45,478 bases of DNA from a virus (IMGVR_UViG_2541047780_000004); one strand, 5' to 3'. Positions 4,789-36,899 are shown, counted from the stretch's first letter. Numbers and translations are program-made. Notes: a model not told the origin generated them from the sequence alone.

Positions 4789-4840
4789 CTTTCATTAATC
4801 CCTGAATTGTTGGTTAATACGCTTGAGGGTGAATGCGAAT

Positions 4841-4866
4841 AATAAAAAAGGAGCCTGTAGCTCCCT
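4841..4866 (-). terminator. Rho-independent terminator-like hairpin in the leftward operon
   Basis: Stem GGAGC / GCTCC with loop CTGTA at 4850-4864; on the minus strand it is followed by a T-tract (plus-strand AATAAAAAA at 4841-4849); sits just downstream of the ORF ending at 4887. Confidence 0.5.
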
Positions 4867-4886
4867 GATGATTTTGCTTTTCATGT

Positions 4887-5168
4887 TCACCGTTCCTTAA
4901 AGACGCCGTTTAACATGCCGATCGCCAGGCTTAAATGAGTCGGTGTGAATCCCATCAGCGTTACCGTTTCGCGGTGCTTCTTTAGTACGCTACGGCAAAT
5001 GTCATCGACGTTTTTATCCGGAAACTGCTGTCTGGCTTTTTTGATTTCAGAATTAGCCTGACGGGCAATGCTGCGAAGGGCGTTTTCTTGCTGAGGTGTC
5101 ACTGAACAAGCCCCATGTCGGCAAGCATAAGCACACAGAATATGAAGCCCGCTGCCAGAAAAATGCAT
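4887..5168 (-). CDS. Hypothetical protein (alternative GTG start at 5102 gives 71 aa)
   Basis: 93-aa ORF from ATG 5166-5168 without a clear RBS; an in-frame GTG at 5100-5102 overlaps the stop of a 27-codon ORF in another frame (GTGA), giving an alternative coupled arrangement. Confidence 0.45.
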   Translation of the reverse strand: MHFSGSGLHILCAYACRHGACSVTPQQENALRSIARQANSEIKKARQQFPDKNVDDICRSVLKKHRETVTLMGFTPTHLSLAIGMLNGVFKER

Positions 5169-5182
5169 TCAGTGGTTGTCAT
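5099..5182 (-). CDS. Candidate 27-aa hydrophobic peptide (MTTTECIFLAAGFIFCVLMLADMGLVQ)
   Basis: ATG at 5180-5182 overlaps the upstream stop (ATGA); TGA at 5099-5101 overlaps the next GTG (GTGA); sequence is strongly hydrophobic. Below the 60-aa ORF-track cut-off, so absent from the track. Confidence 0.3.
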   Translation of the reverse strand: MTTTECIFLAAGFIFCVLMLADMGLVQ

Positions 5183-5370
5183 ACCTGGTCTCTCTCATCT
5201 GCTTCTGCTTTCGCCACCATCATTTCCAGCTTTTGTGAAAGGGATGTGGCTAACGTATGAAATTCTTCGTCTGTTTCTACTGGTATTGGCACAAACCTGA
5301 CTCCAATTTGAGCAAGGCTATGTGCCATCTCAATACTCGTTCTTAACTCAACAGGAGATGCTTTGTGCAT
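5179..5370 (-). CDS. Small early protein (resembles Qin-prophage YdfA-type proteins from memory)
   Basis: 63-aa ORF, ATG at 5368-5370 with GGGAGG RBS; family name is unverified recollection. Confidence 0.5.
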   Translation of the reverse strand: MHKASPVELRTSIEMAHSLAQIGVRFVPIPVETDEEFHTLATSLSQKLEMMVAKAEADERDQV

Positions 5371-5531
5371 ACCGCCTCCCGTTTATTATTTATCTTCTCA
5401 GCCAGCCGCTGTGCTTTCAGTGGATTTCTGATAACAGAAAGGCCGGGAAATACCCAGCCTCGCTTTGTAACGGAGTAGACGAAAGTGATCGCGCCTACCC
5501 GGATATTATCGTGAGGATGCGTCATCGCCAT
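5343..5531 (-). CDS. Small early protein (hypothetical)
   Basis: 62-aa ORF, ATG at 5529-5531, overlaps the downstream gene by 28 nt. Confidence 0.45.
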
Positions 5532-5661
5532 TGCTCCCCAAATACAAAACTAATTTCAGCCAGTGCCTCGTCCATTTTTTCGATGAACTCCGGCACCATC
5601 TCGTCAAAACTCGCCATGTACTTTTCATCCCGCTCAACCACGACATAATGCAGTCCTTCAC
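5522..5661 (-). pseudogene. 5'-truncated early-gene remnant abutting the IS911 left end
   Basis: The ORF track's 5522..5710 reading frame runs into the IS911 terminus at 5662, so its first 16 codons are IS-encoded; only the C-terminal 46 codons are phage-derived. Confidence 0.35.
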
Positions 5662-5733
5662 TGAAGTGGTTTACTGAATTTGGCCACCTGAACAGAGGTG
5701 ATATGCTCACCTCAGAACAACACAGGTGCCATA

Positions 5734-6881
<1,148 letters not shown>

Positions 6882-6911
6882 CTCGGTGGCCAGTTTTTGT
6901 TGACCACTTCA

Positions 6912-7075
6912 GGTATACAATCCTCATCCAAGGGGATGATATGGGCTTGTAGCCACATATCAGAGCGACTTGGTTTCTGTTTCCATTTAACGCCAGAAAA
7001 GTTAACTATTTTTTTACAATAAAGTACTTTATCAACTTCTACTTGGCTTGGCTGATAATCATCTATTTTTGCCAA
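6912..7075 (-). pseudogene. 3'-truncated ORF at the rex position (immediately downstream of the repressor gene), cut by IS911
   Basis: Reading frame starts on TTG at 7073-7075 and runs into the IS911 right end at 6911; AT-rich; only 54 phage-derived codons remain. Confidence 0.25.
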
Positions 7076-7114
7076 TGTTTACCGCCCTGTAAATTGTAGA
7101 TAAAAGTGGTTTCA

Positions 7115-7774
7115 TCACCCAAACGTCTCTTCAGGCCATTGGCTGGCGATAACTTTCCCCACAACGGAACAACTCTCATTGCATGGGATCATTGGGTATT
7201 GTGGGTTTAGTGGCTGTAGAAACACCTGACCGCTATCCCTGATCAGTTTCTTGAAGGTAAATTCATCACCACCAAGTCTGGCTATGCAGAAATCGCCGGG
7301 CTCAACAGCTTGCTCAGGGTCAACCAGAATTAACATCCCGTCAGGAAAGCTGGGTTTGGAACCTGTTGGTGCGGTCATTGAGTTACCTTCAACCTCAAGC
7401 CAGAATGCAGAGTCACTGGCTTTTTTGGTTGTGCTTACCAATCTCTCCGCATCGCCTTTGGTAAAGGTTCTGAGTTCTGGAGAGAACATCCCAGCCTGAA
7501 CATGAGAAAAAACAGGGTACTCATATTGTTTTTTAACTGGGGCCGATGAGTATTCGCCAACAGGTGAAAATGTCCCGTCGTGGTTGAATGATATGTTATC
7601 AATACCAAGGTATTTAAACACCACACCAATATCACTAAGAGATGGATGACGAGATCCGCGCAACCAGTGTCCAATCCCACCCTGCGTCATACCTAGCTCT
7701 TCGGCTAACTTCTCTTGAGTTATGCCGAGCTCTTTCATTCTGGATCTAGCCAGTTCATACCATTTCATTTTCAT
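7115..7774 (-). CDS. cI: CI-type prophage repressor (N-terminal HTH + C-terminal S24 LexA-like peptidase domain)
   Basis: C-terminal 130 aa ([18 protein letters not shown]...[12 protein letters not shown]) match lambda CI as I recall it; N-terminal HTH domain is different. ORF-track start at 7816 is TTG; I chose ATG at 7772-7774 (MKMKWYEL...). Confidence 0.85.
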
Positions 7775-7810
7775 GTCCTTATTATTACGCTCTGTACTGG
7801 AACCATCCAT

Positions 7811-7885
7811 GCACAATGTGTATTTTTACTTGTATTCGCAAAGTACATATTGTATTTTTTTATTCGTGTTTACTATGGAGGGCAT
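7811..7885. promoter_or_regulatory. Divergent cI/cro control region with candidate operator palindromes
   Basis: Intergenic region between divergent cI and cro with short palindromes (CACAATGTG, TACTT-N9-AAGTA, TACATATTGTA); promoter elements not assigned. Confidence 0.4.
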
Positions 7886-8101
7886 ATGAGCAACCTACGA
7901 AAATATCGAGAGTCACTGAATATCTCTCAAACAACACTTGCTAAGGCAGTTGGATGCACACAGGGAGCTATCGGACATTGGGAATCTGGTCGTCGCTTCC
8001 CAGACCTTAAAACATGCCGTGCTCTTGTTGCGTGCCTAAACAAGTTAGGCGCAAAAGTCAGTCTTGATGACGTGTTCCCGCCGGAACACAAAGCCGCTTA
8101 A
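7886..8101 (+). CDS. cro: Cro-like HTH regulator
   Basis: 71-aa ORF, ATG at 7886 preceded by GGAGGG; HTH-like sequence (ISQTTLAKAVGCTQGAIGHWESG). Confidence 0.8.
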   Translation: MSNLRKYRESLNISQTTLAKAVGCTQGAIGHWESGRRFPDLKTCRALVACLNKLGAKVSLDDVFPPEHKAA

Positions 8102-8111
8102 TAAGCGGATC

Positions 8112-8158
8112 CGCTCTTTGTAACAACGGACATTCGTCCTACGTCGCTGAAAAGCGAG
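8112..8158 (+). promoter_or_regulatory. nutR-like element (boxA-like CGCTCTTTG plus downstream hairpin with GAAAA-type loop)
   Basis: CGCTCTTTG at 8112-8120 resembles the boxA consensus; hairpin TCGC-TGAAAA-GCGA at 8144-8157; spacing is longer than in lambda, so tentative. Confidence 0.3.
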
Positions 8159-8242
8159 TTCCAAGATATCTGACCAACTAAGGCCATATGCGTTTCCACG
8201 CATACCTTTCAACTAACTATTCACTATTGGAAATCTTAAGAA

Positions 8243-8539
8243 ATGGAAAGAACAAGTTACAGCAAACTATCACAGCGTGACGTTGATCGCGCAGAAACAG
8301 ATTTACTTATCAATCTGTCAGCTATTACCCAGCGCGGTCTGGCAAAGATGATTGGCTGTCATGAATCGAAGATAAGCAGAACGGACTGGAGATTTATTGC
8401 TTCGGTCTTGTGTGCTTTCGGAATGGCATCAGACATCAGTCCGATTAGCAGGGCTTTTAAGTATGCGCTTGATGGACTCACCAATAAAAAACGCCCGGCG
8501 GCAACCGAGCGTTCTGAACAAATCCAGATGGAATTCTGA
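8243..8539 (+). CDS. cII: CII-like transcriptional activator
   Basis: 98-aa ORF; C-terminal TNKKRPAATERSEQIQMEF matches lambda CII as recalled; N-terminal part differs. Confidence 0.8.
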   Translation: MERTSYSKLSQRDVDRAETDLLINLSAITQRGLAKMIGCHESKISRTDWRFIASVLCAFGMASDISPISRAFKYALDGLTNKKRPAATERSEQIQMEF

Positions 8540-8571
8540 GGTCATTACTGGATCAATCCACAGGAGTCATT

Positions 8572-9471
8572 ATGACAAATACAGCAAAAATACTCAACTT
8601 CTGCAGAGGTAACTTTGCCAAACAGGAGCGTAATGTGGCAGATCTCGATGATGGTTACGCCAGACTATCAAATATGCTGCTTGAGGCTTATTCAGGCGCA
8701 GATCTGACCAAGCGACAGTTTAAAGTGCTGCTTGCCATTCTGCGTAAAACCTATGGATGGAATAAACCAATGGACAGAATCACCGATTCTCAACTTAGCG
8801 AGATTACAAAGTTACCCGTCAAACGGTGCAATGAAGCCAAGTTAGAACTCGTCAGAATGAATATTATCAAGCAGCAAGGCGGCATGTTTGGACCAAATAA
8901 AAACATCTCAGAATGGTGTATCCCTCAAAACGAGGGAAAATCCCCTAAAACGAGGGATAAAACATCCCTCAAATTGGGGGATTGCTATCCCTCAAAACAG
9001 GGGGACACAAAAGACACTATTACAAAAGAAAAAAGAAAAGATTATTCGTCAGAGAATTCTGGCGAATCCTCTGACCAGCCAGAAAACGACCTTTCTGTGG
9101 TGAAACCGGATGCTGCAATTCAGAGCGGCAGCAAGTGGGGGACAGCAGAAGACCTGACCGCCGCAGAATGGATGTTTGACATGGTGAAGACCATCGCGCC
9201 ATCAGCCAGAAAACCGAATTTTGCAGGGTGGGCTAACGATATCCGCCTGATGCGTGAACGTGACGGACGTAACCATCGCGACATGTGTGTACTGTTCCGC
9301 TGGGCATGCCAGGACAACTTCTGGTCCGGTAACGTGCTGAGCCCGGCCAAACTCCGCGACAAGTGGACCCAGCTCGAAATCAACCGTAACAAGCAACAGG
9401 CAGGTGTGACAGCCTGCAAACCAAAACTCGACCTGACAAACACTGACTGGATTTACGGGGTGGATTTATGA
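8572..9471 (+). CDS. O: Replication initiator O (lambda type)
   Basis: 299-aa ORF near-identical to lambda O as recalled (MTNTAKILNF...); contains the iteron array internally. Confidence 0.95.
   Translation: MTNTAKILNFCRGNFAKQERNVADLDDGYARLSNMLLEAYSGADLTKRQFKVLLAILRKTYGWNKPMDRITDSQLSEITKLPVKRCNEAKLELVRMNIIKQQGGMFGPNKNISEWCIPQNEGKSPKTRDKTSLKLGDCYPSKQGDTKDTITKEKRKDYSSENSGESSDQPENDLSVVKPDAAIQSGSKWGTAEDLTAAEWMFDMVKTIAPSARKPNFAGWANDIRLMRERDGRNHRDMCVLFRWACQDNFWSGNVLSPAKLRDKWTQLEINRNKQQAGVTACKPKLDLTNTDWIYGVDL
8920..9050 (+). repeat. ori-lambda-type origin: four about 18-bp iterons followed by an AT-rich segment
   Basis: Iterons ATCCCTCAAAACGAGGGA-like at 8920-8937, 8941-8957, 8964-8981 and 8987-9005, then an A-rich tract 9006-9050, inside the O gene. 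Confidence 0.85.
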
Positions 9472-10169
9472 AAAACATCGCCGCACAGATGGTTAATTTT
9501 GACCGTGAGCAGATGCGTCGGATCGCCAACAACATGCCGGAACAGTACGACGAAAAGCCGCAGGTACAGCAGGTAGCGCAGATCATCAACGGTGTGTTCA
9601 GCCAGTTACTGGCAACTTTCCCGGCGAGTCTGGCTAACCGTGACCAGAACGAACTGAACGAAATCCGCCGCCAGTGGGTTCTGGCTTTCCGGGAAAACGG
9701 GATCACCACAATGGAACAGGTTAACGCAGGAATGCGCGTAGCCCGTCGGCAGAATCGACCATTTCTGCCATCACCCGGGCAGTTTGTTGCATGGTGCCGG
9801 GAAGAAGCATCCGTTATCGCCGGACTGCCAAACGTCAGCGAGCTGGTTGATATGGTTTACGAGTATTGCCGGAAGCGAGGCCTGTATCCGGATGCAGAGT
9901 CTTATCCGTGGAAATCGAACGCGCACTACTGGCTGGTTACCAACCTGTACCAGAACATGCGGGCCAATGCGCTGACTGACGCGGAATTACGACGCAAGGC
10001 TGCCGATGAACTGACCTGTATGACAGCGCGAATTAACCGTGGTGAGACGATACCTGAACCAGTAAAACAACTTCCTGTCATGGGCGGCAGACCTCTAAAT
10101 CGTGTTCAGGCGCTGGCGAAGATCGCAGAAATTAAAGCTAAGTTAGGACTGAAAGGAGCAAGTGTATGA
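9468..10169 (+). CDS. P: Replication protein P (helicase loader, lambda type)
   Basis: 233-aa ORF overlapping the O stop; sequence matches lambda P as recalled. Confidence 0.95.
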   Translation: MKNIAAQMVNFDREQMRRIANNMPEQYDEKPQVQQVAQIINGVFSQLLATFPASLANRDQNELNEIRRQWVLAFRENGITTMEQVNAGMRVARRQNRPFLPSPGQFVAWCREEASVIAGLPNVSELVDMVYEYCRKRGLYPDAESYPWKSNAHYWLVTNLYQNMRANALTDAELRRKAADELTCMTARINRGETIPEPVKQLPVMGGRPLNRVQALAKIAEIKAKLGLKGASV

Positions 10170-20938: not shown

Positions 20939-22527
20939 AACGAACGCCTGTCCTGATTGATGTGAACGGCGTTCCGCTTCGTGAGAGTCTCAGCTACAAC
21001 GGGGGCGGTGCAGGATTTGGCGGGCAAATGGCTGAGTGGTTGCCACCGGCGCAGAGTGCCGATGCGGCCCTGCTGCCCGCGTTGCGTCTGGGGAATGCCC
21101 GGGCAGATGATCTGGTGCGCAATAACGGAATAGCGGCTAATGCGGTGGCTCTGCATAAGGATCACATTGTCGGGCATATGTTTCTGATCAGCTACCGTCC
21201 GAACTGGCGCTGGCTGGGGATGCGGGAGACCGCAGCAAAAAGCTTTGTCGATGAGGTGGAGGCGGCCTGGTCGGAATACGCCGAAGGGATGTTTGGCGAG
21301 ATCGACGTGGAAGGAAAACGCACGTTCACGGAATTTATCCGTGAAGGTGTGGGCGTTCATGCGTTTAACGGCGAAATCTTTGTGCAGCCGGTCTGGGATA
21401 CGGAGAGCACGCAACTGTTTCGTACGCGTTTTAAAGCCGTGAGTCCGAAACGGGTGGACACGCCAGGACACGGTATGGGGAACCGTTTTCTGCGGGCCGG
21501 TGTGGAGGTCGATCGATATGGTCGTGCCGTTGCGTACCATATCTGTGAGGATGATTTTCCGTTCTCTGGTAGTGGACGATGGGAACGGATCCCGCGTGAA
21601 CTTCCCACCGGGCGTCCGGCCATGCTGCATATTTTCGAGCCGGTGGAGGACGGGCAGACCCGTGGGGCTAATCAGTTTTACAGCGTCATGGAACGGCTGA
21701 AGATGCTCGATTCCCTGCAGGCAACACAGCTTCAGTCGGCCATAGTGAAGGCGATGTATGCAGCGACGATTGAAAGTGAACTTGATACCGAAAAGGCCTT
21801 TGAATATATCGCCGGCGCGCCACAGGAGCAGAAGGATAATCCGCTTATTAATATTCTGGAGAAGTTCTCCAGCTGGTATGACACGAATAACGTGACACTG
21901 GGCGGTGTCAAAATTCCGCACCTTTTCCCTGGTGATGATCTGAAACTACAGACAGCGCAGGATTCAGACAATGGATTTTCTGCGCTTGAACAGGCGCTGC
22001 TGCGGTATATCGCCGCCGGTCTTGGCGTTTCCTACGAACAGTTGTCCCGTGATTACTCGAAGGTCAGTTACTCAAGTGCCCGCGCCTCCGCCAATGAGTC
22101 GTGGCGCTATTTTATGGGGCGGCGAAAATTTATTGCGTCCCGGCTGGCCACGCAGATGTTTTCCTGCTGGCTGGAAGAGGCACTTCTTCGGGGGATTATT
22201 CGTCCGCCACGGGCACGTTTTGATTTTTATCAGGCGCGATCAGCCTGGTCACGGGCTGAGTGGATTGGAGCCGGAAGAATGGCCATTGACGGGCTCAAGG
22301 AGGTTCAGGAATCAGTGATGCGCATTGAGGCCGGACTGAGCACGTATGAGAAAGAGCTGGCGCTGATGGGCGAGGATTATCAGGACATTTTCCGCCAGCA
22401 GGTCAGGGAATCTGCAGAGCGGGAAAAAGCCGGACTCTCACGTCCGGTGTGGATAGCGCAGGCGTATCAGCAGCAGATAGCGGAGAGTCGCAGGCCGGAA
22501 GAGGAGACAACACCACGTGAGACGTAA
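20935..22527 (+). CDS. B: Portal protein B
   Basis: ATG at 20935 overlapping the W stop; lambda B-like portal sequence. Confidence 0.9.
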   Translation: MKRTPVLIDVNGVPLRESLSYNGGGAGFGGQMAEWLPPAQSADAALLPALRLGNARADDLVRNNGIAANAVALHKDHIVGHMFLISYRPNWRWLGMRETAAKSFVDEVEAAWSEYAEGMFGEIDVEGKRTFTEFIREGVGVHAFNGEIFVQPVWDTESTQLFRTRFKAVSPKRVDTPGHGMGNRFLRAGVEVDRYGRAVAYHICEDDFPFSGSGRWERIPRELPTGRPAMLHIFEPVEDGQTRGANQFYSVMERLKMLDSLQATQLQSAIVKAMYAATIESELDTEKAFEYIAGAPQEQKDNPLINILEKFSSWYDTNNVTLGGVKIPHLFPGDDLKLQTAQDSDNGFSALEQALLRYIAAGLGVSYEQLSRDYSKVSYSSARASANESWRYFMGRRKFIASRLATQMFSCWLEEALLRGIIRPPRARFDFYQARSAWSRAEWIGAGRMAIDGLKEVQESVMRIEAGLSTYEKELALMGEDYQDIFRQQVRESAEREKAGLSRPVWIAQAYQQQIAESRRPEEETTPRET

Positions 22528-24022
22528 TCTTTCACACATTATTGCAGCAGCATTCAATGAACCGCTGCTTCTGGAGCCCGCCTATGCGCGGGTTTTCTTT
22601 TGCGCGCTCGGGCGCGAGATGGGGGCAGCAAGTCTTTCGGTACCACAACAGCAGGTACAGCTTGATGCACCCGGAATGCTGGCTGAAACGGACGAGTACA
22701 TGGCCGGAGGTAAACGACCGGCCCGTGTTTACCGGGTGGTGAACGGTATTGCGGTACTGCCGGTGACCGGCACGCTGGTGCACCGGCTGGGGGGGATGCG
22801 GCCATTTTCCGGAATGACTGGCTATGACGGCATTGTCGCCTGTCTTCAGCAGGCAATGGCAGATAGCCAGGTGCGGGGCATACTGCTGGACATTGACAGT
22901 CCGGGCGGGCAGGCCGCCGGCGCGTTTGACTGCGCTGACATGATTTACCGCCTCCGGCAGCAGAAGCCGGTCTGGGCACTGTGTAATGACACGGCCTGTT
23001 CTGCAGCCATGCTGCTGGCGTCGGCCTGCTCCCGACGGCTGGTTACCCAGACATCCCGTATCGGCTCCATTGGCGTGATGATGAGCCATGTCAGCTATGC
23101 CGGTCATCTGGCGCAGGCCGGTGTGGATATCACGCTGATTTATGCCGGGGCGCACAAGGTGGATGGCAATCAGTTTGAAGCGTTGCCGGCAGAGGTTCGC
23201 CAGGACATGCAGCAGCGGATTGATGCGGCGCGCCGGATGTTTGCCGAAAAAGTGGCGATGTATACCGGTCTGTCTGTTGATGCCGTCACGGGAACAGAGG
23301 CTGCCGTTTTTGAAGGTCAGTCCGGCATTGAGGCCGGGCTGGCGGATGAATTAATCAATGCGTCGGATGCCATCAGTGTGATGGCCACGGCGCTGAACAG
23401 TAATGTCAGAGGAGGCACTATGCCGCAATTAACTGCAACGGAAGCCGCCGTGCAGGAGAACCAGCGAGTGATGGGGATCCTGACATGCCAGGAAGCGAAA
23501 GGACGTGAACAGCTTGCCACGATGCTGGCAGGGCAACAGGGCATGAGCGTTGAACAGGCCCGGGCGATTCTGGCCGCGGCGGCACCGCAGCAGCCGGTGG
23601 CATCCGCACAGAGTGAAGCCGATCGCATTATGGCGTGTGAAGAAGCGAACGGTCGTGAACAACTGGCAGCAACGCTGGCGGCGATGCCGGAGATGACGGT
23701 GGAAAAAGCCCGCCCGATCCTGGCTGCTTCACCGCAGGCGAATGCCGGGCCCTCACTTCGTGATCAGATCATGGCACTGGATGAGGCAAAAGGGGCTGAG
23801 GCGCAGGCTGAACAGCTGGCTGCCTGCCCGGGAATGACAGTGGAGAGCGCCCGGGCTGTGCTGGCTGCGGGATCAGGTAAGGCAGAACCGGTCTCTGCAT
23901 CCACAACCGCCATGTTTGAACATTTCATGGCGAACCATTCACCGGCAGCGGTACAGGGTGGCGTGGCACAGACGTCAGCAGACGGTGATGCGGACGTGAA
24001 AATGCTCATGGCCATGCCATGA
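22517..24022 (+). CDS. C: Prohead protease/scaffold (C with Nu3-like C-terminal region), S49-peptidase-like
   Basis: 501-aa ORF with GTG start overlapping the B stop; N-terminal region resembles lambda C; C-terminal region holds three tandem repeats of about 50 aa. Confidence 0.85.
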   Translation: MRRNLSHIIAAAFNEPLLLEPAYARVFFCALGREMGAASLSVPQQQVQLDAPGMLAETDEYMAGGKRPARVYRVVNGIAVLPVTGTLVHRLGGMRPFSGMTGYDGIVACLQQAMADSQVRGILLDIDSPGGQAAGAFDCADMIYRLRQQKPVWALCNDTACSAAMLLASACSRRLVTQTSRIGSIGVMMSHVSYAGHLAQAGVDITLIYAGAHKVDGNQFEALPAEVRQDMQQRIDAARRMFAEKVAMYTGLSVDAVTGTEAAVFEGQSGIEAGLADELINASDAISVMATALNSNVRGGTMPQLTATEAAVQENQRVMGILTCQEAKGREQLATMLAGQQGMSVEQARAILAAAAPQQPVASAQSEADRIMACEEANGREQLAATLAAMPEMTVEKARPILAASPQANAGPSLRDQIMALDEAKGAEAQAEQLAACPGMTVESARAVLAAGSGKAEPVSASTTAMFEHFMANHSPAAVQGGVAQTSADGDADVKMLMAMP

Positions 24023-28432: not shown

Positions 28433-28848
28433 GTTTTGCCCTGAAACTGGCGCGAGAGATGGGGCGACCTGACTGGCGCGCCATGCTTGCCGGGATGTCA
28501 TCCACGGAGTATGCCGACTGGCACCGCTTTTACAGTACCCATTATTTTCATGATGTTCTGCTGGATATGCACTTTTCCGGGCTGACGTACACTGTGCTCA
28601 GCCTGTTTTTCAGCGATCCGGATATGCATCCGCTGGATTTCAGTTTGCTGAACCGGCGTGAGGATGACGAAGAGCCTGAAGATGATGTGCTGATGCAGAA
28701 AGCGGCAGGGCTTACCGGAGGCGTCCGCTTTGACCCGGACGGAAATGAAGTTATCCCCGCTTCCCCGGATATGGCGGGCATGACGGAGGATGACGTAATG
28801 CTGATGACAGTATCAGAAGGGATCGCAGGAGGAGTCCGGTATGGCTGA
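28414..28848 (+). CDS. T: Tail assembly protein T (made as a G-T fusion by -1 programmed frameshift)
   Basis: ORF in the -1 frame relative to G, starting at the slippery site GGGAAAG; conserved lambda G/T arrangement. Confidence 0.8.
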   Translation: MFDGELSFALKLAREMGRPDWRAMLAGMSSTEYADWHRFYSTHYFHDVLLDMHFSGLTYTVLSLFFSDPDMHPLDFSLLNRREDDEEPEDDVLMQKAAGLTGGVRFDPDGNEVIPASPDMAGMTEDDVMLMTVSEGIAGGVRYG

Positions 28849-29869
28849 ACCGGTAGGCGATCTGGTCGTTGATTTAAGTCTGGATGCGGCCAGATTTGAC
28901 GAGCAGATGGCCAGAGTCAGGCGTCATTTTTCCGGTACGGAAAGTGATGCGAAAAAAACAGCGGCAGTCGTTGAACAGTCGCTGAGCCGACAGGCGCTGG
29001 CTGCACAGAAAGCGGGGATTTCCGTCGGGCAGTATAAAGCCGCCATGCGTATGCTGCCTGCACAGTTCACCGACGTGGCCACGCAGCTTGCAGGCGGGCA
29101 AAGCCCGTGGCTGATCCTGCTGCAACAGGGTGGTCAGGTTAAGGACTCCTTCGGCGGGATGATCCCCATGTTCCGGGGGCTTGCCGGTGCGATCACCCTG
29201 CCGATGGTCGGGGCCACCTCGCTGGCGGTGGCGACCGGTGCGCTGGCGTATGCCTGGTATCAGGGTAACTCAACCCTGTCCGATTTCAACAAAACGCTGG
29301 TCCTTTCCGGCAATCAGTCGGGTCTGACGGCAGATCGTATGCTGGTCCTGTCCAGAGCCGGGCAGGCGGCAGGGCTGACGTTTAACCAGACCAGCGAGTC
29401 ACTCAGCGCACTGGTTAAGGCGGGAGTAAGCGGTGAGGCTCAGATTGCATCCATCAGCCAGAGTGTGGCGCGTTTCTCCTCTGCATCCGGCGTGGAGGTG
29501 GACAAGGTCGCTGAAGCCTTCGGGAAGCTGACCACTGACCCGACGTCGGGGCTGACGGCGATGGCGCGCCAGTTCCATAACGTAACGGCGGAGCAGATTG
29601 CGTATGTTGCTCAGTTGCAGCGTTCCGGCGATGAATCCGGGGCATTGCAGGCGGCGAACGAGGCCGCAACGAAAGGGTTTGATGACCAGACCCGACGCCT
29701 GAAAGAGAACATGGGCACGCTGGAAACCTGGGCAGACAGGACAGCACGGGCATTCAAATCCATGTGGGATGCGGTGCTGGATATTGGTCGTCCTGATACC
29801 GCTCAGGAGATGCTGATTAAGGCAGAGGCTGCGTTTAAGAAAGGTAAGCTTCCGGGGAACTCATATTGA
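28841..29869 (+). pseudogene. H: Tape measure protein H, N-terminal fragment interrupted by an IS66-family insertion
   Basis: Product matches the lambda H N-terminus up to ...AEAAFKK (about 29843); the frame then runs into IS sequence and stops at 29869. Confidence 0.85.
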
Positions 29870-29934
29870 CGCGTTTTTCAGGCGCGCGTCATCGGCGGCG
29901 CATAGTAAGCGACTCGTCAGAACCGTATTGATAT

Positions 29935-31501
29935 TTACTGAGAGCTCAGATCAACTTTCCAGGGCAACAGATCGCGTACCCGGTTTGCCGGCCAGTCCTG
30001 GATATGTTCAATGACGTAACGCAGCCACTTTTCTGGCTCCACATTGTTCAGACGGCATGTGCCGATCAGCGAGTACAACACCGCCGCATGTTCACCACCG
30101 CTGTCGGAACCCGCGAACATCCAGTTTTTCCGGCCTACGGCCACTCCCCGTAAGGCGTTCTCTGCGATGTTGTTGTCGATTTCCACCCAGCCATTACTGC
30201 AGTACACGTTCAGTGCATCCCACTGTTTCAGCAGGTATGCGAACGCTTTTGCCGTATCTGAGTGACGCGACAGTGTTTTCATCTGTTGCTGTATCCAGTC
30301 ATACAGTGACTGCATCAGTGGCGCGGCTCTGGCTTTTCTTGCCGCCAGACGCTGTTCTGCTGAACAGCCCCGGACCTCTGCCTCGATGGCATACAGTTCA
30401 CCGATACGCTGCAGGGCTTCCGTGGTGATGTAGGTGGGCGCTCTTGCATGCACATCGTGGATTTTTCTCCGGGCATGAGCCATACACGCGGCTTCCGTTA
30501 TTCTGCCGGATTCGTATAAGGTAACCACCGTAAGCATCGGCCTGAAGCACACCGCTGTAACCGGCCAGGTGATTTTGTGGATGGATACCTTTCCGGTCCG
30601 GACTGTACGCGAACCAGACCGCCGGGGGCATCTGTGAACCGGCGTTACGGTCATCACGGACGTAGACCCACAGCCGGGCTGTCCGGGTTTTACCGCTGCC
30701 CGGCTCCTGGACCGGGACGGGGATATCATCAGCATGGACTTTACCGGGCATCAGCACATACTGGCGCAGGACGTCATACAGCGGCTCCAGCAGTTCAGCA
30801 ACAGCACCTGTCCAGCGCCCCAGTGTGGCACGGCTCAGCTCCACTCCCTGACGACGGTATATTTCTGACTGGCGGTATAACGGCAGATGGTCTGCATATT
30901 TCCCGGTGACAACATGGGCCAGAAGCCCCGCTCCGGCATAACTGCGTGCAATGGGTTTTGAAGGTACTGGTGCCTGCACGATATGGTCGCACCGGCAACA
31001 GGCCTGTTTCGGACGTTGTGTTTCGATAACCTTAAAGGCGCTGCTGATAAGCTCCAGTTGCTCTGACACATCACATCCCAGAGAACTGAGTTCACCACCA
31101 CAGGCAGGACAGCATTCCTCTTCCGGCCGGATAACCCGGGTTTCACGGGGAAGTGAGGCCGGTAACGGTTTACGGGCTGAAGACTGGCGCAGGGCGGATG
31201 GCAGTACCGGGTCATATTGCTCACCCAGCGTTTCCGCCATTTCTTCCTGAAGTGCGCTGATTCGCTCCTGTGCTTCCTGTATCTGCCGTTCGGTTTTTGC
31301 ACGAAGTTTTTCTGAGCTTTTACCGAACTGCATACGTTGCAGTTTCGCAACCAGCGCCTTCAGCCGGTTGATTTCGGAAGCATAAGCCGCCACCCGCTGT
31401 GAGAGCAGGCGGTTGTATTCAGCCATCTGGCGGATGGTGTCCTGTTGCGTCTGCAACAGTGCCCGCAGGCGGGCGTTCTCATGAGCAAGTGAGGTGTCCA
31501 T
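29935..31501 (-). pseudogene. IS66-family transposase (ISEc8-like), split into two overlapping frames by a frameshift
   Basis: N-terminal ORF 30398..31501 and C-terminal ORF 29935..30735 are consecutive parts of one transposase; the frame switch is near 30510-30530 (after ...ADAYGGY). Confidence 0.7.
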
Positions 31502-31520
31502 ATCCTCACTTTACAACGGG

Positions 31521-31868
31521 TTATATGCGGATTCCAGCGCGTTCCGTTCGTTTCGGGTGCTTCCAGTTGATACCTTCAAGAAGCATGGATAACTGAGCCG
31601 GAGTAAGGTGCACCTTGCCGTCACGGGTGACTGGCCAGACGAAGCGGCCCCGCTCCAGGCGTTTGGTGAAGAGGCACAGTCCGTCACTGTCAGCCCACAA
31701 CACTTTTATCTGGTCACCCCGGCGTCCGCGGAAGATGAACAGGTGTCCGGAGAACGGGTCATCCTTCAGGACGTTCTGAACTTTTGATGCCAGGCCGTTA
31801 AAGCCATTTCGCATATCGGTGATACCTGCAACCAGCCAGATACGCGAACCTGCAGGGAGAGATATCAT
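31521..31868 (-). CDS. IS66-family accessory protein TnpB (orf2)
   Basis: 115-aa product with the conserved IS66 Orf2 sequence; ATG overlaps the orf1 stop (ATGA). Confidence 0.8.
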   Translation of the reverse strand: MISLPAGSRIWLVAGITDMRNGFNGLASKVQNVLKDDPFSGHLFIFRGRRGDQIKVLWADSDGLCLFTKRLERGRFVWPVTRDGKVHLTPAQLSMLLEGINWKHPKRTERAGIRI

Positions 31869-32545
31869 CAGTGGCTGCTCCCTTTTATTTCGCGGATAAG
31901 TGTCTGTAATAACGCCGGCGTCAGTTTACCTTTAAGCCTGAGAGTTCCGGCCGGCAGAACCAGCTCACAACACAGACTGTCGGACGGTGTATTTATCTGC
32001 TCTGGTTCCTGTGCGGGGGCCGGGATTTTATTATCCGGCTCCGGCGTTAACGTCACGGGAAGCAGTGCCGGCATATTTTTTCCGGAAGGCAGCAGGCCAC
32101 CTTTCCGGTATTGATGGCGCCAGTTGAAGAGCAGGTTATCGTTGATTCCGTTTTCCCGGGCGATCTGCGCCACACAGGCTCCGGGCTGCAGTGACTGCTC
32201 CACTAAGGCGATTTTAAACTCATAAGGGAAGTTGGGCCGCCGGGGACGTTTTTTTACCACGGGGGCTTCGGATATAACGGTGCTTTCAGGACGTACGACT
32301 GGTACCGTGGAAAATTGTCCGTAAAGGCAGGCATCAAGTTCCTGCTCCGACATGCCTGCGGGCAAAGGCCACGAAAGGCCAGCTCTCCGAAAGCGCACGA
32401 ACATACTACAAACTGTTGATTTTGGTACACCCAGGCGACGCCCGGCCACAACCCGGGGTAAATGTTCTTCAAAGTGAAGACGTAAAGCTTCAGTGATCCA
32501 GGTCCGGTGTTTCATACGATAGTGTCCATTAAAAATGATGGACAT
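31868..32545 (-). CDS. IS66-family orf1 (TnpA-like HTH protein), unusually long
   Basis: 225-aa ORF; C-terminal half has the IS66 Orf1-like HTH region; the N-terminal about 100 aa is an extension and the real start may be internal. Confidence 0.65.
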   Translation of the reverse strand: MSIIFNGHYRMKHRTWITEALRLHFEEHLPRVVAGRRLGVPKSTVCSMFVRFRRAGLSWPLPAGMSEQELDACLYGQFSTVPVVRPESTVISEAPVVKKRPRRPNFPYEFKIALVEQSLQPGACVAQIARENGINDNLLFNWRHQYRKGGLLPSGKNMPALLPVTLTPEPDNKIPAPAQEPEQINTPSDSLCCELVLPAGTLRLKGKLTPALLQTLIREIKGSSH

Positions 32546-32686
32546 TATTTTTGTAGAGCCGGAGGAAACAGACCAGACGGTCTAAATGAGCCGGTTACGG
32601 CGCATACGAACGATCGTGGTTTGATAACGGTTGATTTATTTTGTTGCACAGGGGCGATCGCCAGGCAGGTACCGGAGGCGGGCTCT

Positions 32687-32785
32687 GAAGTACTGAGTAG
32701 GGTGATCGCGTCAGGCCGCGAAGTACTGACTCGGGGATTAATAGCAGGTGATGATGTACTGACCCGGGAATGACTCCGGGCTGAT
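32687..32785 (+). repeat. Three tandem 33-bp direct repeats with an IS66 inverted-repeat-like core, near the junction of the two IS66 elements
   Basis: Units starting at 32687, 32720 and 32753, each beginning GA(A/T)GTACTGA; the third unit (GTACTGACCCGGGAATGACTC) resembles the terminal IR at 29844. Confidence 0.5.
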
Positions 32786-32907
32786 TCAGGTTCTTATTCG
32801 CTGTCAGCCCGCGTGGTTGCTGGTCTGGCTCATTTCCTGCCGTCAGGAGTTCAACTCCCGACTGCAGGTTATGGCCCGGTGCACGAACACCTGACGGCAG
32901 GTATCAC

Positions 32908-34473
32908 TCACCCGGAGAAGGTAAATCCCTCAAGAGGCAGCAACTCTGCCAGTCGCTCCTCCGGCCACTCCGGCAGACGCATCAGGACGTCTGTCAACCA
33001 GGCATGCGGCTCCAGACCGTTGCGTTTCGCGGTTTCCAGCAAGCTCATTATTTGCGCGGCGCGTTCTCCCGCCATCTGCGAACCGGCGAACAGCCACGAT
33101 TTTCTGCCCAGAACCACGTTTTTGATGGCCCGTTCACACACATTATTATCCAGCGGCACCGCACCATCTTCCAGGAAGCGGCTCAGTTCCACGCGATGAG
33201 ACAGCGCATAGGCAATGGCTTTGTGTAATGCCCTTCCCGGAGAACATTGCGGTTCCTGCTCTTCAAGCCATGACCACAGTTCTTCCAGTATCGGACGGGC
33301 ATAACGCTGTCGCCACTGGCGGATTTTTTCCACGGGGCGGCTACTGATCTTCTTCTCAAGACGGTACAACCCCGCGATTTTCTTCACGGCTATGGCAGCC
33401 CGTGGATCTTTACTGATTTTATACAGGTCGGCGAAGCCCCTGCGGGCATGGGCCCAGCATCCGGCCAGCGTGATCTCCGGCACTTTGTTTGCCAGAGTCC
33501 GGTAAGCTTTATGTCCGTCGACAACCAGCGTCCCGCCCCAGCCCTGAAGCCAGTTTTCAGGATACTCATGGCTACGTCCGGTCCGGCAGTCGAAGCACAC
33601 AACTGACGGTCCCGTCCTTTCTCCACTGACGTATGCCCACAGATAACCGGAGCAGGATTTACCGCCTTTCTTCGTGTTCAGGATCTTCAGGGTAGTCTCA
33701 TCTGCATGCACCACCGGACGGTTTATCAACTCGCGATGGAGTAACGCCGCCAGGGGAGATAATGCGGCACCCGCCGCGCCAACCATGTCAGCCATCGAAC
33801 TGACGGGCAGCCCGACATCTGAACGGGCAAAGACCTGTTGCTGGCGATACAGAGGCAGGTGGTCACCGTATTTATTGATGATCACCTGTGCGATGACTGA
33901 TGGCTCAACGGCACTTTTCGGGAGGATATGTGCCGGCATTTCACCGCTGAACACCTTCTGGCAACAGGGACAACTGTATTGTGGACGGACATAACGGTTC
34001 ACCACAAAGTGAGCGGGAATATACTCCAGCTTTTCACTCACCGCATCGCGGATATAGTGCAGCGGCTCGTCACATTCAGGGCAATGGTCAGTGTCCGGCT
34101 GGATAATTTTTTCCACCCGTGGAAGATGAACCGGTAAGGGTTTGCGTATCGGGCGTGAACGGGACGCTTTTTCGTCTTCTTCAGGGGATTGCGGGAGCAG
34201 TTTATCCAGATGTGCGGTAAGCGCGGCGATATCGGCATCAACATCCTCTTCGAACAGGGAGCGTTGCATACCAGCCAGCGTTCCACATTTTTTTCCGAAG
34301 CGCTGTTGACGAACCAGTTTCAGCATTTCTTCCAGAAGCTGGATGCGCCGGCTTTTCTCCAGTAATTCCCGCTCTTTTTCGGCATTCTCCGACATGACTT
34401 CTTGTACCATGGCAAGTGCCATAGCACGCAGTTTTTCGATGTCATTCGTGGTGTTGAGAGCGGAGATATCCAT
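32908..34473 (-). CDS. IS66-family transposase (orf3), apparently intact
   Basis: Start chosen at ATG 34471-34473 (MDISALNTT...) by analogy with the MDTSLAHEN start of the other element; DDE-type IS66 transposase sequence with a CxxC-containing region. Confidence 0.85.
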   Translation of the reverse strand: MDISALNTTNDIEKLRAMALAMVQEVMSENAEKERELLEKSRRIQLLEEMLKLVRQQRFGKKCGTLAGMQRSLFEEDVDADIAALTAHLDKLLPQSPEEDEKASRSRPIRKPLPVHLPRVEKIIQPDTDHCPECDEPLHYIRDAVSEKLEYIPAHFVVNRYVRPQYSCPCCQKVFSGEMPAHILPKSAVEPSVIAQVIINKYGDHLPLYRQQQVFARSDVGLPVSSMADMVGAAGAALSPLAALLHRELINRPVVHADETTLKILNTKKGGKSCSGYLWAYVSGERTGPSVVCFDCRTGRSHEYPENWLQGWGGTLVVDGHKAYRTLANKVPEITLAGCWAHARRGFADLYKISKDPRAAIAVKKIAGLYRLEKKISSRPVEKIRQWRQRYARPILEELWSWLEEQEPQCSPGRALHKAIAYALSHRVELSRFLEDGAVPLDNNVCERAIKNVVLGRKSWLFAGSQMAGERAAQIMSLLETAKRNGLEPHAWLTDVLMRLPEWPEERLAELLPLEGFTFSG

Positions 34474-34515
34474 ACAGGGGAGTATACCACTCCAGATACG
34501 GATATTCATTATTTT

Positions 34516-34908
34516 TCACTGAGTTAGCAGTGTATTTTGCGTGTTTTCAGGGCGCAGTTCAGGTTCATTCTGCCAGACCCATTTCGTCAGGTCATGTCCC
34601 TTAACCTGCTGCCAGTCAACACCGGCAATCAGCCAGTTAAACTCGTCGGGAGTGAGGTGCCAGGCAGCGTCATTTGCACGTGGCCAGCGGAAGCTGCCTT
34701 TGTGCAGACGGCGGGTACACAACCACACCCCGTGTTTATCCCACCGGAGAACTTTGATACGCGAACGGGCTTTGTTAACAAAGACGAAGGCGGCTCCCTC
34801 ATGCCATGTCGACCGGAGTTCATCCTGTATATACTGCGTCAGTGAGTCGATGCCCCGGCGCATGTCAACAGGTTTAATTGCGATGAAGACATTATCAGGA
34901 CTGAGCAT
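34516..34908 (-). CDS. IS66-family TnpB (orf2)
   Basis: Start at ATG 34906-34908 (MLSPDNVFIAIKPVDMRRGI...), overlapping the orf1 stop. Confidence 0.8.
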   Translation of the reverse strand: MLSPDNVFIAIKPVDMRRGIDSLTQYIQDELRSTWHEGAAFVFVNKARSRIKVLRWDKHGVWLCTRRLHKGSFRWPRANDAAWHLTPDEFNWLIAGVDWQQVKGHDLTKWVWQNEPELRPENTQNTLLTQ

Positions 34909-35224
34909 ATTTGAGTGCCCTGAAGACATCGGTAAGTTGTGACGGCTGACAGCACATCCGTACTCCACCGGGAAGGAAGAGCGTGACTGGCTCATTCGTG
35001 ACGGGCTGTGGTACATCAGCATGCAGTGGTGGCGCAATATGAACGGGAAGAACGGTCGGTTCATTTGCCCGGCGTTCAGCTTTTGCGACATCCTGCGGCC
35101 ATTCGCGAAGTGATGTGAAGGGAATATCGTTGAGTTCACAGTATTGCTGACGTGTAAGACCACTGGCGCGCCAGGCAGCAACGTGCTGCCTTTTCTGTTC
35201 AATGGTCCATCGGGGTTTTGACAT
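34895..35224 (-). CDS. IS66-family orf1 (TnpA-like)
   Basis: 109-aa product with an HTH-like N-terminus (MSKPRWTIEQKRQHVAAW...). Confidence 0.8.
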   Translation of the reverse strand: MSKPRWTIEQKRQHVAAWRASGLTRQQYCELNDIPFTSLREWPQDVAKAERRANEPTVLPVHIAPPLHADVPQPVTNEPVTLFLPGGVRMCCQPSQLTDVFRALKYAQS

Positions 35225-35311
35225 CGATTATCTCCGGTAAGTTGGTGAATGGATGTCGGTAATACTAACTGACCGAAGATCCCTGTGAAGATGACTTCCC
35301 CGTAACGACAC

Positions 35312-36899
35312 TAAGAAAGCGGACGACATCTGGAATCTGCGCAAGGATGATTATTTTGTTAACGATGAAGCGCGGGCGCGTTACTGGGATGATCGTGAAA
35401 AGGCCCGTCTTGCGCTTGAAGCCGCCCGAAAGAAGGCTGAACAGCAGAGTCAACAGGACAAAAATGCGCAGCAGCAGAGCGATACCGAAGCATCACGGCT
35501 GAAATATACCGAAGAGGCGCAGAAGGCTTACGAACGGCTGCAGACACCGCTGGAGAAATATACCGCCCGTCAGGAAGAACTGAACAAGGCACTGAAAGAC
35601 GGGAAAATCCTGCAGGCAGATTACAACACGCTGATGGCGGCGGCGAAAAAGGATTATGAAGCGACGCTGAAAAAGCCGAAACAGTCCGGCGTGAAGGTGT
35701 CTGCGGGCGATCGTCAGGAAGACAGTGCTCATGCTGCCCTGCTGACGCTTCAGGCTGAACTCCGGACGCTGGAGAAGCATGCCGGAGCAAATGAGAAAAT
35801 CAGCCAGCAGCGCCGGGATTTGTGGAAGGCGGAGAGTCAGTTCGCGGTACTGGAGGAGGCGGCGCAACGTCGCCAGCTGTCTGCACAGGAGAAATCCCTG
35901 CTGGCGCATAAAGATGAGACGCTGGAGTACAAACGCCAGCTGGCTGCACTTGGCGACAAGGTTACGTATCAGGAGCGCCTGAACGCGCTGGCGCAGCAGG
36001 CGGATAAATTCGCACAGCAGCAACGGGCAAAACGGGCCGCTATTGATGCGAAAAGCCGGGGGCTGACTGACCGGCAGGCAGAACGGGAAGCCACGGAACA
36101 GCGCCTGAAGGAACAGTATGGCGATAATCCTCTGGCGCTGAATAACGTCATGTCAGAGCAGAAAAAGACCTGGGCGGCTGAAGACCTGCTTCGCGGGAAC
36201 TGGATGGCAGGCCTGAAGTCCGGCTGGAGTGAGTGGGAAGAGAGTGCCACGGACAGTATGTCGCAGGTTAAAAGTGCTGCCACGCAGACCTTTGATGGTA
36301 TTGCGCAGAATATGGCGGCGATGCTGACCGGCAGTGAACAGAACTGGCGCAGCTTCACCCGTTCCGTGCTGTCCATGATGACAGAAATTCTGCTTAAGCA
36401 GGCAATGGTGGGGATTGTCGGGAGTATCGGCAGCGCTATTGGCGGGGCTGTTGGTGGCGGCGCATCCGCGTCAGGCGGTACAGCCATTCAGGCCGCTGCG
36501 GCGAAACTCCATTTTGCAACCGGAGGATTTACGGGAACCGGCGGCAAATATGAGCCAGCGGGGATTGTTCACCGTGGTGAATTTGTCTTCACGAAGGAGG
36601 CAACCAGCCGGATTGGCGTGGGAAATCTCTACCGGCTGATGCGCGGCTATGCCACCGGCGGTTATGTCGGTGCCACCGGCGGTTATGTCGGTGGCACCGG
36701 AAGTCCGGCGCAAATGCGGCGTTCAGAGGGTATCAGGTTTGAGCAGAACAACAACGTGGTGATTCAGAACGACGGTACGAATGGTCTGCCAGGTCCACAG
36801 ATGATGAAGGCGGTGTATGACATGGCCCGCAAGGGTGCCCGTGATGAAATCCAGGCACAGATGCGCGATGGTGGTCTGTTCTCCGGAGGTGGACGATGA
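35312..36899 (+). pseudogene. H: Tape measure protein H, C-terminal fragment
   Basis: The H reading frame resumes exactly at the right-hand copy of the 8-bp repeat (KKADDIWNLRKDD...) and continues to the lambda-like H C-terminus (...RDGGLFSGGGR). Confidence 0.85.

What the first reader, a model, noticed from the sequence alone, without database searches (positions are those of the whole stretch)
29836..35319. Tape measure gene H split by two tandem IS66-family elements with an 8-bp target duplication
The H reading frame stops matching lambda H after ...AEAAFKK at 29843 and resumes exactly at 35312 (KKADDIWN...). The intervening 5468 bp carry two full IS66-type orf1-orf2-orf3 sets, both on the minus strand, flanked by a perfect direct repeat TAAGAAAG. 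Removing the insert and one repeat copy restores an in-frame H. This should make the prophage tail-defective. The arrangement suggests either nested/adjacent insertion or a composite transposition event.
Basis: seen in the sequence. Interest (0 to 1): 0.55.

Follow-up and report, generated by a model that had tools for sequence, protein, structure and literature searches.

The report
Nested IS66 pair splits tail gene
A lambda-like prophage's tail tape-measure gene is cut in two by a 5.5-kb jumping element made of one IS66-family insertion sequence sitting inside another, and the pair hops as a single unit; this is a clean example but ordinary mobile-DNA biology.

Summary
TAAGAAAG occurs only at 29836-29843 and 35312-35319, bracketing a 5,468-bp insert (29844-35311). 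Removing the insert and one repeat gives an 860-aa H that is 96% identical to lambda H end to end. The empty site is 100% identical in many B2 E. coli.

The "two tandem IS" reading needs correcting. The structure is nested. An ISCro1-family element (29905-32598) has its own 8-bp duplication, GGCGCATA, and its tnpC is broken by a 5-bp deletion. It lies 53 bp inside the tnpC-distal end of a 2,766-bp ISEc49-family element (29844-29904 plus 32599-35311). Un-nested ISEc49 copies in other strains prove this.

The whole 5,468-bp unit has moved en bloc on the ISEc49 ends. An identical copy lies between yeeR and agn43 in 44 complete genomes (duplication GTTAATGC). Another lies in a cdiB/shlB-like gene on the window's own scaffold, GCA_000458095.1 (duplication GAACGAAC).

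The H insertion was found only in that assembly. It should abolish tail assembly, but the prophage also lacks about 6.7 kb of its early-left region. This is known biology and of low interest.

The parts
28841..29843 (+). 5' part of the lambda-like tape-measure gene H (codons 1-334 plus the first base of codon 335). As it stands, the ORF runs on to 29869 and adds 8 IS-encoded residues (GKLPGNSY), giving a 342-aa product.
   Evidence: lambda H 1-334 at 98.8% identity. One search gives Pfam TMP_2 on the 342-aa product.
29836..29843 (.). Left copy of the 8-bp target-site duplication TAAGAAAG made by insertion of the whole 5,468-bp unit.
   Evidence: The target is single-copy in the empty site, L002 20593-20600.
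29844..29904 (-). Displaced tnpC-distal end of the ISEc49-family element. It comprises the terminal inverted repeat (GTAAGCTTCCGGGGAACTCAT...) and 53 bp in all up to the ISCro1 target, followed by one copy of the ISCro1 duplication.
   Evidence: 100% identical to L004 3949-4009, which is contiguous there with the rest of ISEc49; the reconstructed 2,766-bp element has 0 mismatches to L013.
29897..29904 (.). Left copy of the 8-bp duplication GGCGCATA made when ISCro1 inserted into ISEc49.
29905..32598 (-). ISCro1-family IS66 element, 2,694 bp here against 2,699 bp for an intact copy. Ends are GTAAGCGACTCG... and ...GAGCCGGTTAC. It is the passenger inside ISEc49.
   Evidence: 99.8% identity to an isolated copy in O26:H11 11368, L003. 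One search gives the PGAP name 'ISCro1 family transposase'. One search shows inverted repeats matching at 17/30.
29935..31501 (-). ISCro1 tnpC (DDE transposase), inactivated by a 5-bp deletion at 30519/30520. It is read as two ORFs, 30398-31501 (367 aa) and 29935-30735 (266 aa).
   Evidence: the DDE_Tnp_IS66 profile is split, positions 1-139 and 141-283. One search shows it annotated as 'frameshifted' in ATCC 25922.
31521..31868 (-). ISCro1 tnpB (IS66 Orf2-like, 115 aa).
   Evidence: PF05717, E = 4.7e-40.
31868..32545 (-). ISCro1 tnpA (225 aa, HTH accessory protein).
   Evidence: HTH_Tnp_1; NF038385 IS66_access_TnpA, 295.8 bits.
32599..32606 (.). Right copy of the ISCro1 duplication GGCGCATA.
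32599..35311 (-). Main body of the ISEc49-family IS66 element. It runs from the ISCro1 target to the tnpA-proximal inverted repeat, which on the reverse complement reads GTGTCGTTACGGGGAAGTCAT....
   Evidence: inverted repeats match at 20/30 between the two outer ends.
32908..34473 (-). ISEc49 tnpC, an intact DDE transposase. It is 521 aa from the annotated start; the longest ORF, to 34509, gives 533 aa.
   Evidence: LZ, zf-IS66, DDE_Tnp_IS66 positions 2-283 of 284, and the C-terminal element. (NF033517, 441.6 bits). (WP_000354986.1, 'ISEc49 family transposase').
34516..34908 (-). ISEc49 tnpB (130 aa).
   Evidence: PF05717, E = 3.3e-35. Also.
34895..35224 (-). ISEc49 tnpA (109 aa).
   Evidence: NF047593 IS66 TnpA, 50.8 bits. 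Also.
35312..35319 (.). Right copy of the target-site duplication TAAGAAAG.
35320..36899 (+). 3' part of H, from the last two bases of codon 335 to the stop. It has no start codon of its own at the junction. The longest internal ATG ORF is 35634-36899 (421 aa).
   Evidence: lambda H 333-853 at 94.3% identity. One search gives Pfam Tape_meas_lam_C.

Best explanation
The insert is one mobile unit with a nested structure, ISEc49::ISCro1. History and mechanism are as follows.

1. A 2,766-bp ISEc49-family IS66 element inserted between yeeR and agn43 in a genomic island of a B2-lineage E. coli. It made the 8-bp duplication GTTAATGC.
2. An ISCro1-family IS66 element inserted into the non-coding tail of that ISEc49. 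The site is 301 bp past the tnpC stop and 53 bp inside the terminus. It made the duplication GGCGCATA and left both ISEc49 inverted repeats and all three ISEc49 genes intact. The ISCro1 tnpC then lost 5 bp.
3. In the strain the window comes from (NCBI assembly GCA_000458095.1, scaffold KE700201.1), the 5,468-bp unit transposed en bloc. The IS66-family machinery acted on the two outer ISEc49 ends. This step is inferred, and the intact ISEc49 TnpA/TnpB/TnpC encoded in cis are the likeliest source. The unit landed between codons 334 and 335 of the tape-measure gene H of the lambdoid prophage that ATCC 25922 carries next to sitABCD and an icd fragment. It duplicated TAAGAAAG. A second copy landed in a cdiB/shlB-like gene on the same scaffold.

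Consequence (inferred from the established role of lambda gpH in tail assembly): H is truncated to a 342-aa product. The prophage therefore cannot build tails unless a co-resident lambdoid prophage complements or repairs the gene.
For: Shown directly:
- The 5,468-bp insert is 100% identical in 45 complete E. coli genomes, and the match stops exactly at the insert ends.
- In ATCC 25922 the unit lies between a yeeR-type pseudogene and agn43, flanked by GTTAATGC on both sides.
- 44 genomes share that island junction.
- A third copy, 100% identical, lies on the window's own scaffold inside a ShlB/CdiB-type gene, flanked by GAACGAAC.
- Strains G8, UPEC132, SCU-101 and others carry ISEc49 at the island site without ISCro1. 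Window 29844-29904 is contiguous there with 32598 onward.
- Deleting 29905-32606 from the window gives 2,766 bp with 0 mismatches to such a copy.
- ISCro1 boundaries are fixed by isolated copies and by its own duplication GGCGCATA.
- The ISEc49 genes are intact and the ISCro1 tnpC is frameshifted.
- The empty H site is 100% identical in many genomes, including ATCC 25922, which holds the island copy as well.
- An 8-bp duplication is the reported hallmark of IS66 (PMC6778807).
- The truncated 342-aa H product is on record in only one contig, carried by two samples of the collection, from assembly GCA_000458095.1.
Against: - No experiment here shows which transposase moved the unit. ISCro1 proteins supplied in trans, or another IS66 relative, cannot be excluded.
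- The source is a scaffold-level draft assembly with at least two identical 5.5-kb copies. The interior of the H copy could therefore have been filled from a collapsed repeat. Only the junctions are unique sequence.
- Whether the island (donor) copy is still present in the source genome was not determined. Copy-and-paste versus cut-and-paste is therefore unresolved. At least one duplication must have occurred to give two new copies.
Confidence: 0.9

Rival explanations
1. Two independent insertions happened in place. ISEc49 first landed in H, and ISCro1 later landed next to or inside it there.
For: Nested and adjacent IS insertions are common in IS-rich regions. For example, in O26:H11 11368 ISCro1 abuts a truncated ISEc22-family tnpC.
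Against: The same ISCro1 position, the same GGCGCATA duplication and the same 5-bp tnpC deletion are found at 100% identity in the yeeR/agn43 island of dozens of genomes. They are also found in a third site on the same scaffold. Repeating the identical three events independently in H is not credible.
Confidence: 0.02
2. This is compound-transposon-type movement. Two separate IS66-family elements lie side by side, and a transposase used the outer end of each.
For: The two outer ends are only 20/30 identical as inverted repeats. On their own they could pass for ends of different elements.
Against: Un-nested copies show that both outer ends belong to one 2,766-bp element, ISEc49. The ISCro1 ends are internal, at 29905 and 32598. 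The ISCro1 outer end matches the ISEc49 outer end at only 11/30.
Confidence: 0.03
3. The insert is wholly or partly an assembly artefact. The draft assembler placed or filled a collapsed IS repeat in H. Either there is no insertion, or the H copy is a plain ISEc49 and the ISCro1 interior was borrowed from the other copies.
For: The source is a scaffold-level draft. It holds at least two identical 5.5-kb copies on one scaffold, which short reads cannot resolve internally.
Against: The IS termini are exact, the 8-bp duplication is perfect and the frame is restored. These are signatures of transposition, not of mis-joining. There are no Ns in the window. The 61-bp ISEc49 end is short enough for single reads to link the H flank to the ISCro1 start.
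Confidence: 0.04
4. A plain ISEc49 transposed into H. It then acquired ISCro1 by gene conversion or homologous recombination with the island copy.
For: About 2.7 kb of homology on one side would allow conversion. The 100% identity between copies is compatible with it.
Against: This needs two extra events at each of two new sites (H and the cdiB-like gene). Only 53 bp of homology lie on one side of ISCro1. No plain ISEc49 was seen outside the island site.
Confidence: 0.01

Closest known systems
IS66 family insertion sequences (IS66, IS679, ISEc8, ISCro1, ISEc49)
   Same: - Three consecutive genes, tnpA-tnpB-tnpC.
- An IS66-type DDE transposase with leucine-zipper, zinc-finger and C-terminal modules.
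- Imperfect terminal inverted repeats that begin with GT.
- An 8-bp target duplication.
- Element sizes of about 2.7 kb (8 bp for IS66 per PMC6778807).
   Different: Here one member is lodged inside the non-coding end of another, and the 5.5-kb pair behaves as a single element. The inner member is disabled by a 5-bp deletion.
IS elements carrying passenger DNA ('transporter IS') and other IS-in-IS nests. This comparison rests on my own knowledge of the ISfinder and Siguier/Chandler reviews and was not tested here.
   Same: DNA inserted between the transposase gene and an intact inverted repeat is carried along when the host IS transposes.
   Different: The passenger is itself an IS of the same family rather than an accessory gene.
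Compound transposons (Tn5, Tn10 type)
   Same: Two IS-derived gene sets move together and are flanked by one target duplication.
   Different: There is no cargo between two copies of one IS. Both active ends belong to a single element, so this is a unit IS with an insertion and not a compound transposon.
IS-inactivated lambdoid prophages of pathogenic E. coli, such as the defective prophage pool of O157:H7 Sakai. This comparison rests on my own knowledge.
   Same: A lambda-like prophage carrying morons (in ATCC 25922 an ompC-like porin and iss, with sitABCD next to it) is crippled by IS insertions and IS-associated deletions.
   Different: The specific lesion is an IS66 nest in H at codon 334/335. 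It is on record in one assembly only.

Membership tests
IS66 family (both elements) | Three consecutive ORFs tnpA, tnpB (IS66 Orf2-like) and tnpC on one strand | tested here: met
   ISEc49: 34895-35224, 34516-34908, 32908-34473. ISCro1: 31868-32545, 31521-31868, 29935-31501 (frameshifted).
IS66 family (both elements) | TnpC is an IS66-type DDE transposase (Pfam DDE_Tnp_IS66; NCBIfam NF033517) | tested here: met
   E = 2.8e-90, full profile, for ISEc49; split profile for ISCro1; 441.6 bits for ISEc49 TnpC and 477.9 bits for the intact ISCro1 TnpC from L003, against a cut-off of 180.
IS66 family (both elements) | 8-bp target-site duplication | tested here: met
   Duplications found: TAAGAAAG, GTTAATGC and GAACGAAC for the unit, and GGCGCATA for ISCro1. 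PMC6778807 reports 8 bp for IS66.
IS66 family (both elements) | Imperfect terminal inverted repeats of about 20-30 bp, typically starting GTAAGCG (the start motif is recalled from memory) | tested here: met
   ISCro1: GTAAGCG... / GTAACCG..., 17/30. ISEc49: GTAAGCT... / GTGTCGT..., 20/30.
ISEc49 and ISCro1 as named ISfinder entries | High nucleotide identity to the ISfinder reference sequences | not testable with these tools
   ISfinder is not available here. The names rest on PGAP labels of identical or near-identical proteins. 'ISEc49 family transposase' is WP_000354986.1. 'ISCro1 family transposase' is WP_000381395.1.
Compound (composite) transposon | Two copies of an IS bracket a segment, and the outer end of each copy is used | tested here: not met
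   Both outer ends belong to one 2,766-bp ISEc49, and the second IS is internal.
Lambda gpH-type tail tape-measure protein | Full-length collinear similarity to lambda H, with position after G/T and before M-L-K-I-J | tested here: met
   96% identity over 860/853 aa; neighbours are G, T, then M, L, K, I, J. Pfam TMP_2 and Tape_meas_lam_C hit the two halves.

The most novel reading that the evidence does not exclude
The nested ISEc49::ISCro1 unit is generally a fixed, single-copy resident of the yeeR/agn43 island in ST73-like E. coli. In this one strain it has become active, with two fresh insertions into accessory loci: a prophage tail gene and a contact-dependent-inhibition transporter gene. 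If confirmed, it would be a natural case in which an IS stays fully mobile after doubling in size through capture of a relative that cannot move on its own transposase gene. The IS66 machinery would then tolerate about 2.7 kb inserted 53 bp from an end, which puts an upper bound on the cis-acting end sequence this poorly studied family needs.
Probability: 0.6. Interest if true: 0.3.

Novelty: new member of a known kind. Interest (0 to 1): 0.22.

Why it matters
- **Annotation.** It turns an apparent 'two tandem IS' picture into a resolved history of three dated steps, each with its own target duplication.
- **IS66 biology.** It gives natural evidence that no more than 53 bp at the tnpC-distal end of an IS66-family element are needed in cis. 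It also shows that such an element can carry 2.7 kb of extra DNA.
- **The host.** It documents a strain-specific knock-out of a prophage tail gene and of a cdiB-like gene. Such knock-outs are a routine route of prophage decay.
- **Overall.** None of this changes current understanding.

Tried and rejected
- **Internal repeats.** I first looked for inverted and direct repeats inside the insert to place the internal boundary. The output was dominated by chance matches and did not resolve it. Comparison with isolated copies did.
- **First boundary guess.** From I assumed abutting elements, IS-A 29844-32598 and IS-B 32599-35311. One search overturned this: 29844-29904 belongs to IS-B.
- **Same insertion elsewhere.** An exact-junction scan of one-genome-per-species contigs found nothing. 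No complete E. coli genome has flank plus insert. No plasmid or phage record has the nested junction.
- **L008.** L008 (CP050217.1) first looked like a fourth insertion site. Its left flank is the island flank, and the copy is simply broken at the outer ISCro1 end, so I rejected it as an independent transposition.
- **Literature.** The primary IS679/IS66-family paper (Han et al. 2001) is not held. Searches for ISEc49 and ISCro1 returned only incidental mentions.
Full report
**1. The observation**

The sequence reads ...GCT GCG TTT AAG AAA G|GTAAGCTTCCGGGG... at 29836-29843/29844 and ...CCCGTAACGACAC|TAAGAAAG CGG ACG... at 35311/35312-35319. TAAGAAAG occurs nowhere else on either strand of the window.

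The insert is 29844-35311, 5,468 bp. Removing it and one repeat copy gives an 860-aa ORF. That ORF aligns with lambda H (NC_001416, 853 aa) end to end at 96% identity with one 7-aa insertion. Against the raw window, lambda H 1-334 maps to 28841-29842 and 333-853 to 35313-36896. The two-residue overlap is the KK encoded by the duplicated target.

As it stands, H is truncated to 334 residues plus 8 IS-encoded residues, a 342-aa product.

**2. The empty site and the host prophage**

A 1,200-bp restored junction is 100% identical to uninterrupted tape-measure genes in CFT073, Nissle 1917, ATCC 25922, UTI89, APEC O1 and many others.

The window is the lambdoid prophage that ATCC 25922 carries next to sitABCD and an icd fragment. 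In that record it has ompC-like porin and iss morons. Window 9248-29843 matches L002 1-20600 at 99.94%. Window 35312-45478 matches L002 20593-30738. The two matches overlap by exactly the 8-bp target.

**3. What the insert is**

ORFs and domains show two IS66-family gene sets on the minus strand.

- The right-hand set is intact: tnpA 34895-35224, tnpB 34516-34908, tnpC 32908-34473. PGAP calls the identical TnpC an 'ISEc49 family transposase'.
- The left-hand set is tnpA 31868-32545, tnpB 31521-31868 and tnpC 29935-31501. It is 99.8% identical to an isolated ISCro1-family copy in O26:H11 11368.
- A 5-bp deletion at 30519/30520 splits the left-hand tnpC.

ISCro1 was named from Citrobacter rodentium ICC168, where it has 24 copies (PMC3072379).

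**4. Nested, not tandem**

Matches of isolated ISCro1 copies stop at 29905 and 32598-32599. Those ends read GTAAGCGACTCG... and ...GAGCCGGTTAC, and they are flanked by a perfect 8-bp repeat, GGCGCATA, at 29897-29904 and 32599-32606.

In strain G8 the ISEc49-family element lacks ISCro1. There, window 29844-29904 (L004 3949-4009) is contiguous with window 32598 onward (L004 4001 onward), overlapping by the duplicated target.

Deleting 29905-32606 from the window reconstructs a 2,766-bp element with zero mismatches to an un-nested copy, L013 6199-8964. So the 61 bp at the left edge of the insert are the displaced tnpC-distal end of ISEc49. ISCro1 sits 53 bp inside that end and 301 bp beyond the ISEc49 tnpC stop. 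The two outer ends of the insert are the ISEc49 inverted repeats (20/30 matches).

**5. The unit moves as one piece**

The 5,468 bp are 100% identical in 45 complete E. coli genomes, and the matches end exactly at the insert boundaries.

| Site | Where found | 8-bp duplication |
|---|---|---|
| Between a yeeR-type gene and agn43 | ATCC 25922; 44 genomes share this junction | GTTAATGC |
| Tape-measure gene H | This window | TAAGAAAG |
| Inside a ShlB/CdiB-type transporter gene next to a CdiA-like toxin gene | Same scaffold as the window (L011), 100% identical | GAACGAAC |

A further set of genomes has the un-nested ISEc49 at the same island site. That gives the order of events: ISEc49 into the island, then ISCro1 into ISEc49, then en bloc transposition.

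An exact-product look-up places the window in NCBI assembly GCA_000458095.1, scaffold KE700201.1. The truncated H product is on record only there.

Three different 8-bp duplications around identical termini are the signature of transposition on the ISEc49 ends. Eight base pairs is the reported IS66 duplication (PMC6778807).

**6. Mechanism: shown and inferred**

Shown:
- The nested architecture.
- Intact ISEc49 ends and genes.
- The disabled ISCro1 tnpC.
- Three TSD-flanked sites.
- Identity of the copies.
- The empty site.

Inferred:
- The ISEc49 TnpA/B/C acted in cis on the outer ends.
- At least one event raised the copy number.
- Loss of H function abolishes tail assembly. This follows from the established role of lambda gpH as tape measure.

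Not resolved:
- Whether the mode is replicative or conservative.
- Whether the island copy persists in the source strain.
- Whether downstream tail genes suffer polarity.

**7. Caveats**

The source is a scaffold-level draft with at least two identical 5.5-kb repeats. The interior of the H copy may therefore have been filled from a collapsed repeat. The junctions, the duplication and the in-frame restoration argue strongly for a real insertion. There are no Ns in the window.

The nested junction is absent from the plasmid and phage collections. The H junction itself is absent from the one-genome-per-species collection.

**8. Context for the 'tail-defective' claim**

Relative to ATCC 25922, the window's prophage lacks about 6.7 kb of the early-left region next to an IS3-family copy at 5658-6911. 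The missing stretch runs from just past the cI-like repressor gene to most of exo. It includes the annotated sieB, ral, cIII, kil, gam and bet genes.

The prophage is therefore probably already impaired for lytic growth, and H is not its only lesion. Its head genes look intact; for example, the S49 peptidase ORF 22517-24022 is uninterrupted.

**9. Verdict**

The feature is real and precisely described, but it is ordinary.

Two points are mildly useful. IS66-family transposition tolerates 2.7 kb of extra DNA 53 bp from an end. The unit shows a strain-specific burst of two new sites. Novelty: a new member of a known kind. Interest is low.

Noticed in passing
L011 6199-11666 (GCA_000458095.1, scaffold KE700201.1, about 1.3-16.9 kb): A second, 100% identical 5,468-bp ISEc49::ISCro1 copy lies on the window's own scaffold. 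It splits a ShlB/CdiB-type two-partner-secretion transporter gene (173-aa and 368-aa fragments) next to a 3,216-aa CdiA-like toxin gene (TPS, Fil_haemagg_2, PT-VENN, Ntox25). It is flanked by the duplication GAACGAAC.
   Followed up: yes
window 4763-9540, IS at 5658-6911: An IS3-family (ISEc52-like) copy joins sequences that are about 6.7 kb apart in ATCC 25922. The annotated sieB, ral, cIII, kil, gam and bet genes, most of exo and a second IS3 copy are absent. The ISEc52 site of ATCC 25922 is empty here. This is an IS-adjacent deletion of the early-left (pL) region.
   Followed up: partly
window 36650-36670: There are 21 extra in-frame bases inside H relative to ATCC 25922 (TGCCACCGGCGGTTATGTCGG). 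They lie in a GGYVGATGGYVGGT stretch of the protein, so the tape measure is 860 aa where lambda's is 853 aa.
   Followed up: partly
window 32687-32771: Three 19-nt direct repeats (GAAGTACTGA..GGG..) are spaced exactly 33 bp apart. They lie in the non-coding stretch of ISEc49 between the tnpC stop and the ISCro1 insertion point. Their function is unknown; one possibility is subterminal binding sites.
   Followed up: no
window 21405-21420 and 22546-22559: There is a cluster of 6 substitutions within 16 bp relative to ATCC 25922. Separately, four single-A differences make the S49 peptidase (gpC-like) gene intact in the window but 'frameshifted' in CP009072. The latter look like homopolymer errors in that record.
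   Followed up: no
L008 6199-11610 (CP050217.1, a 6.65-Mb record): This is an island-type copy in which ISCro1 has an intact 523-aa tnpC. The structure ends at the outer ISCro1 terminus, so the 61-bp ISEc49 end is missing. That suggests an ISCro1-mediated rearrangement.
   Followed up: partly
L003 899-4700 (E. coli O26:H11 11368): The isolated ISCro1 copy there directly abuts a truncated ISEc22-family tnpC. This is another case of one IS66-family element lying against or inside another.
   Followed up: no
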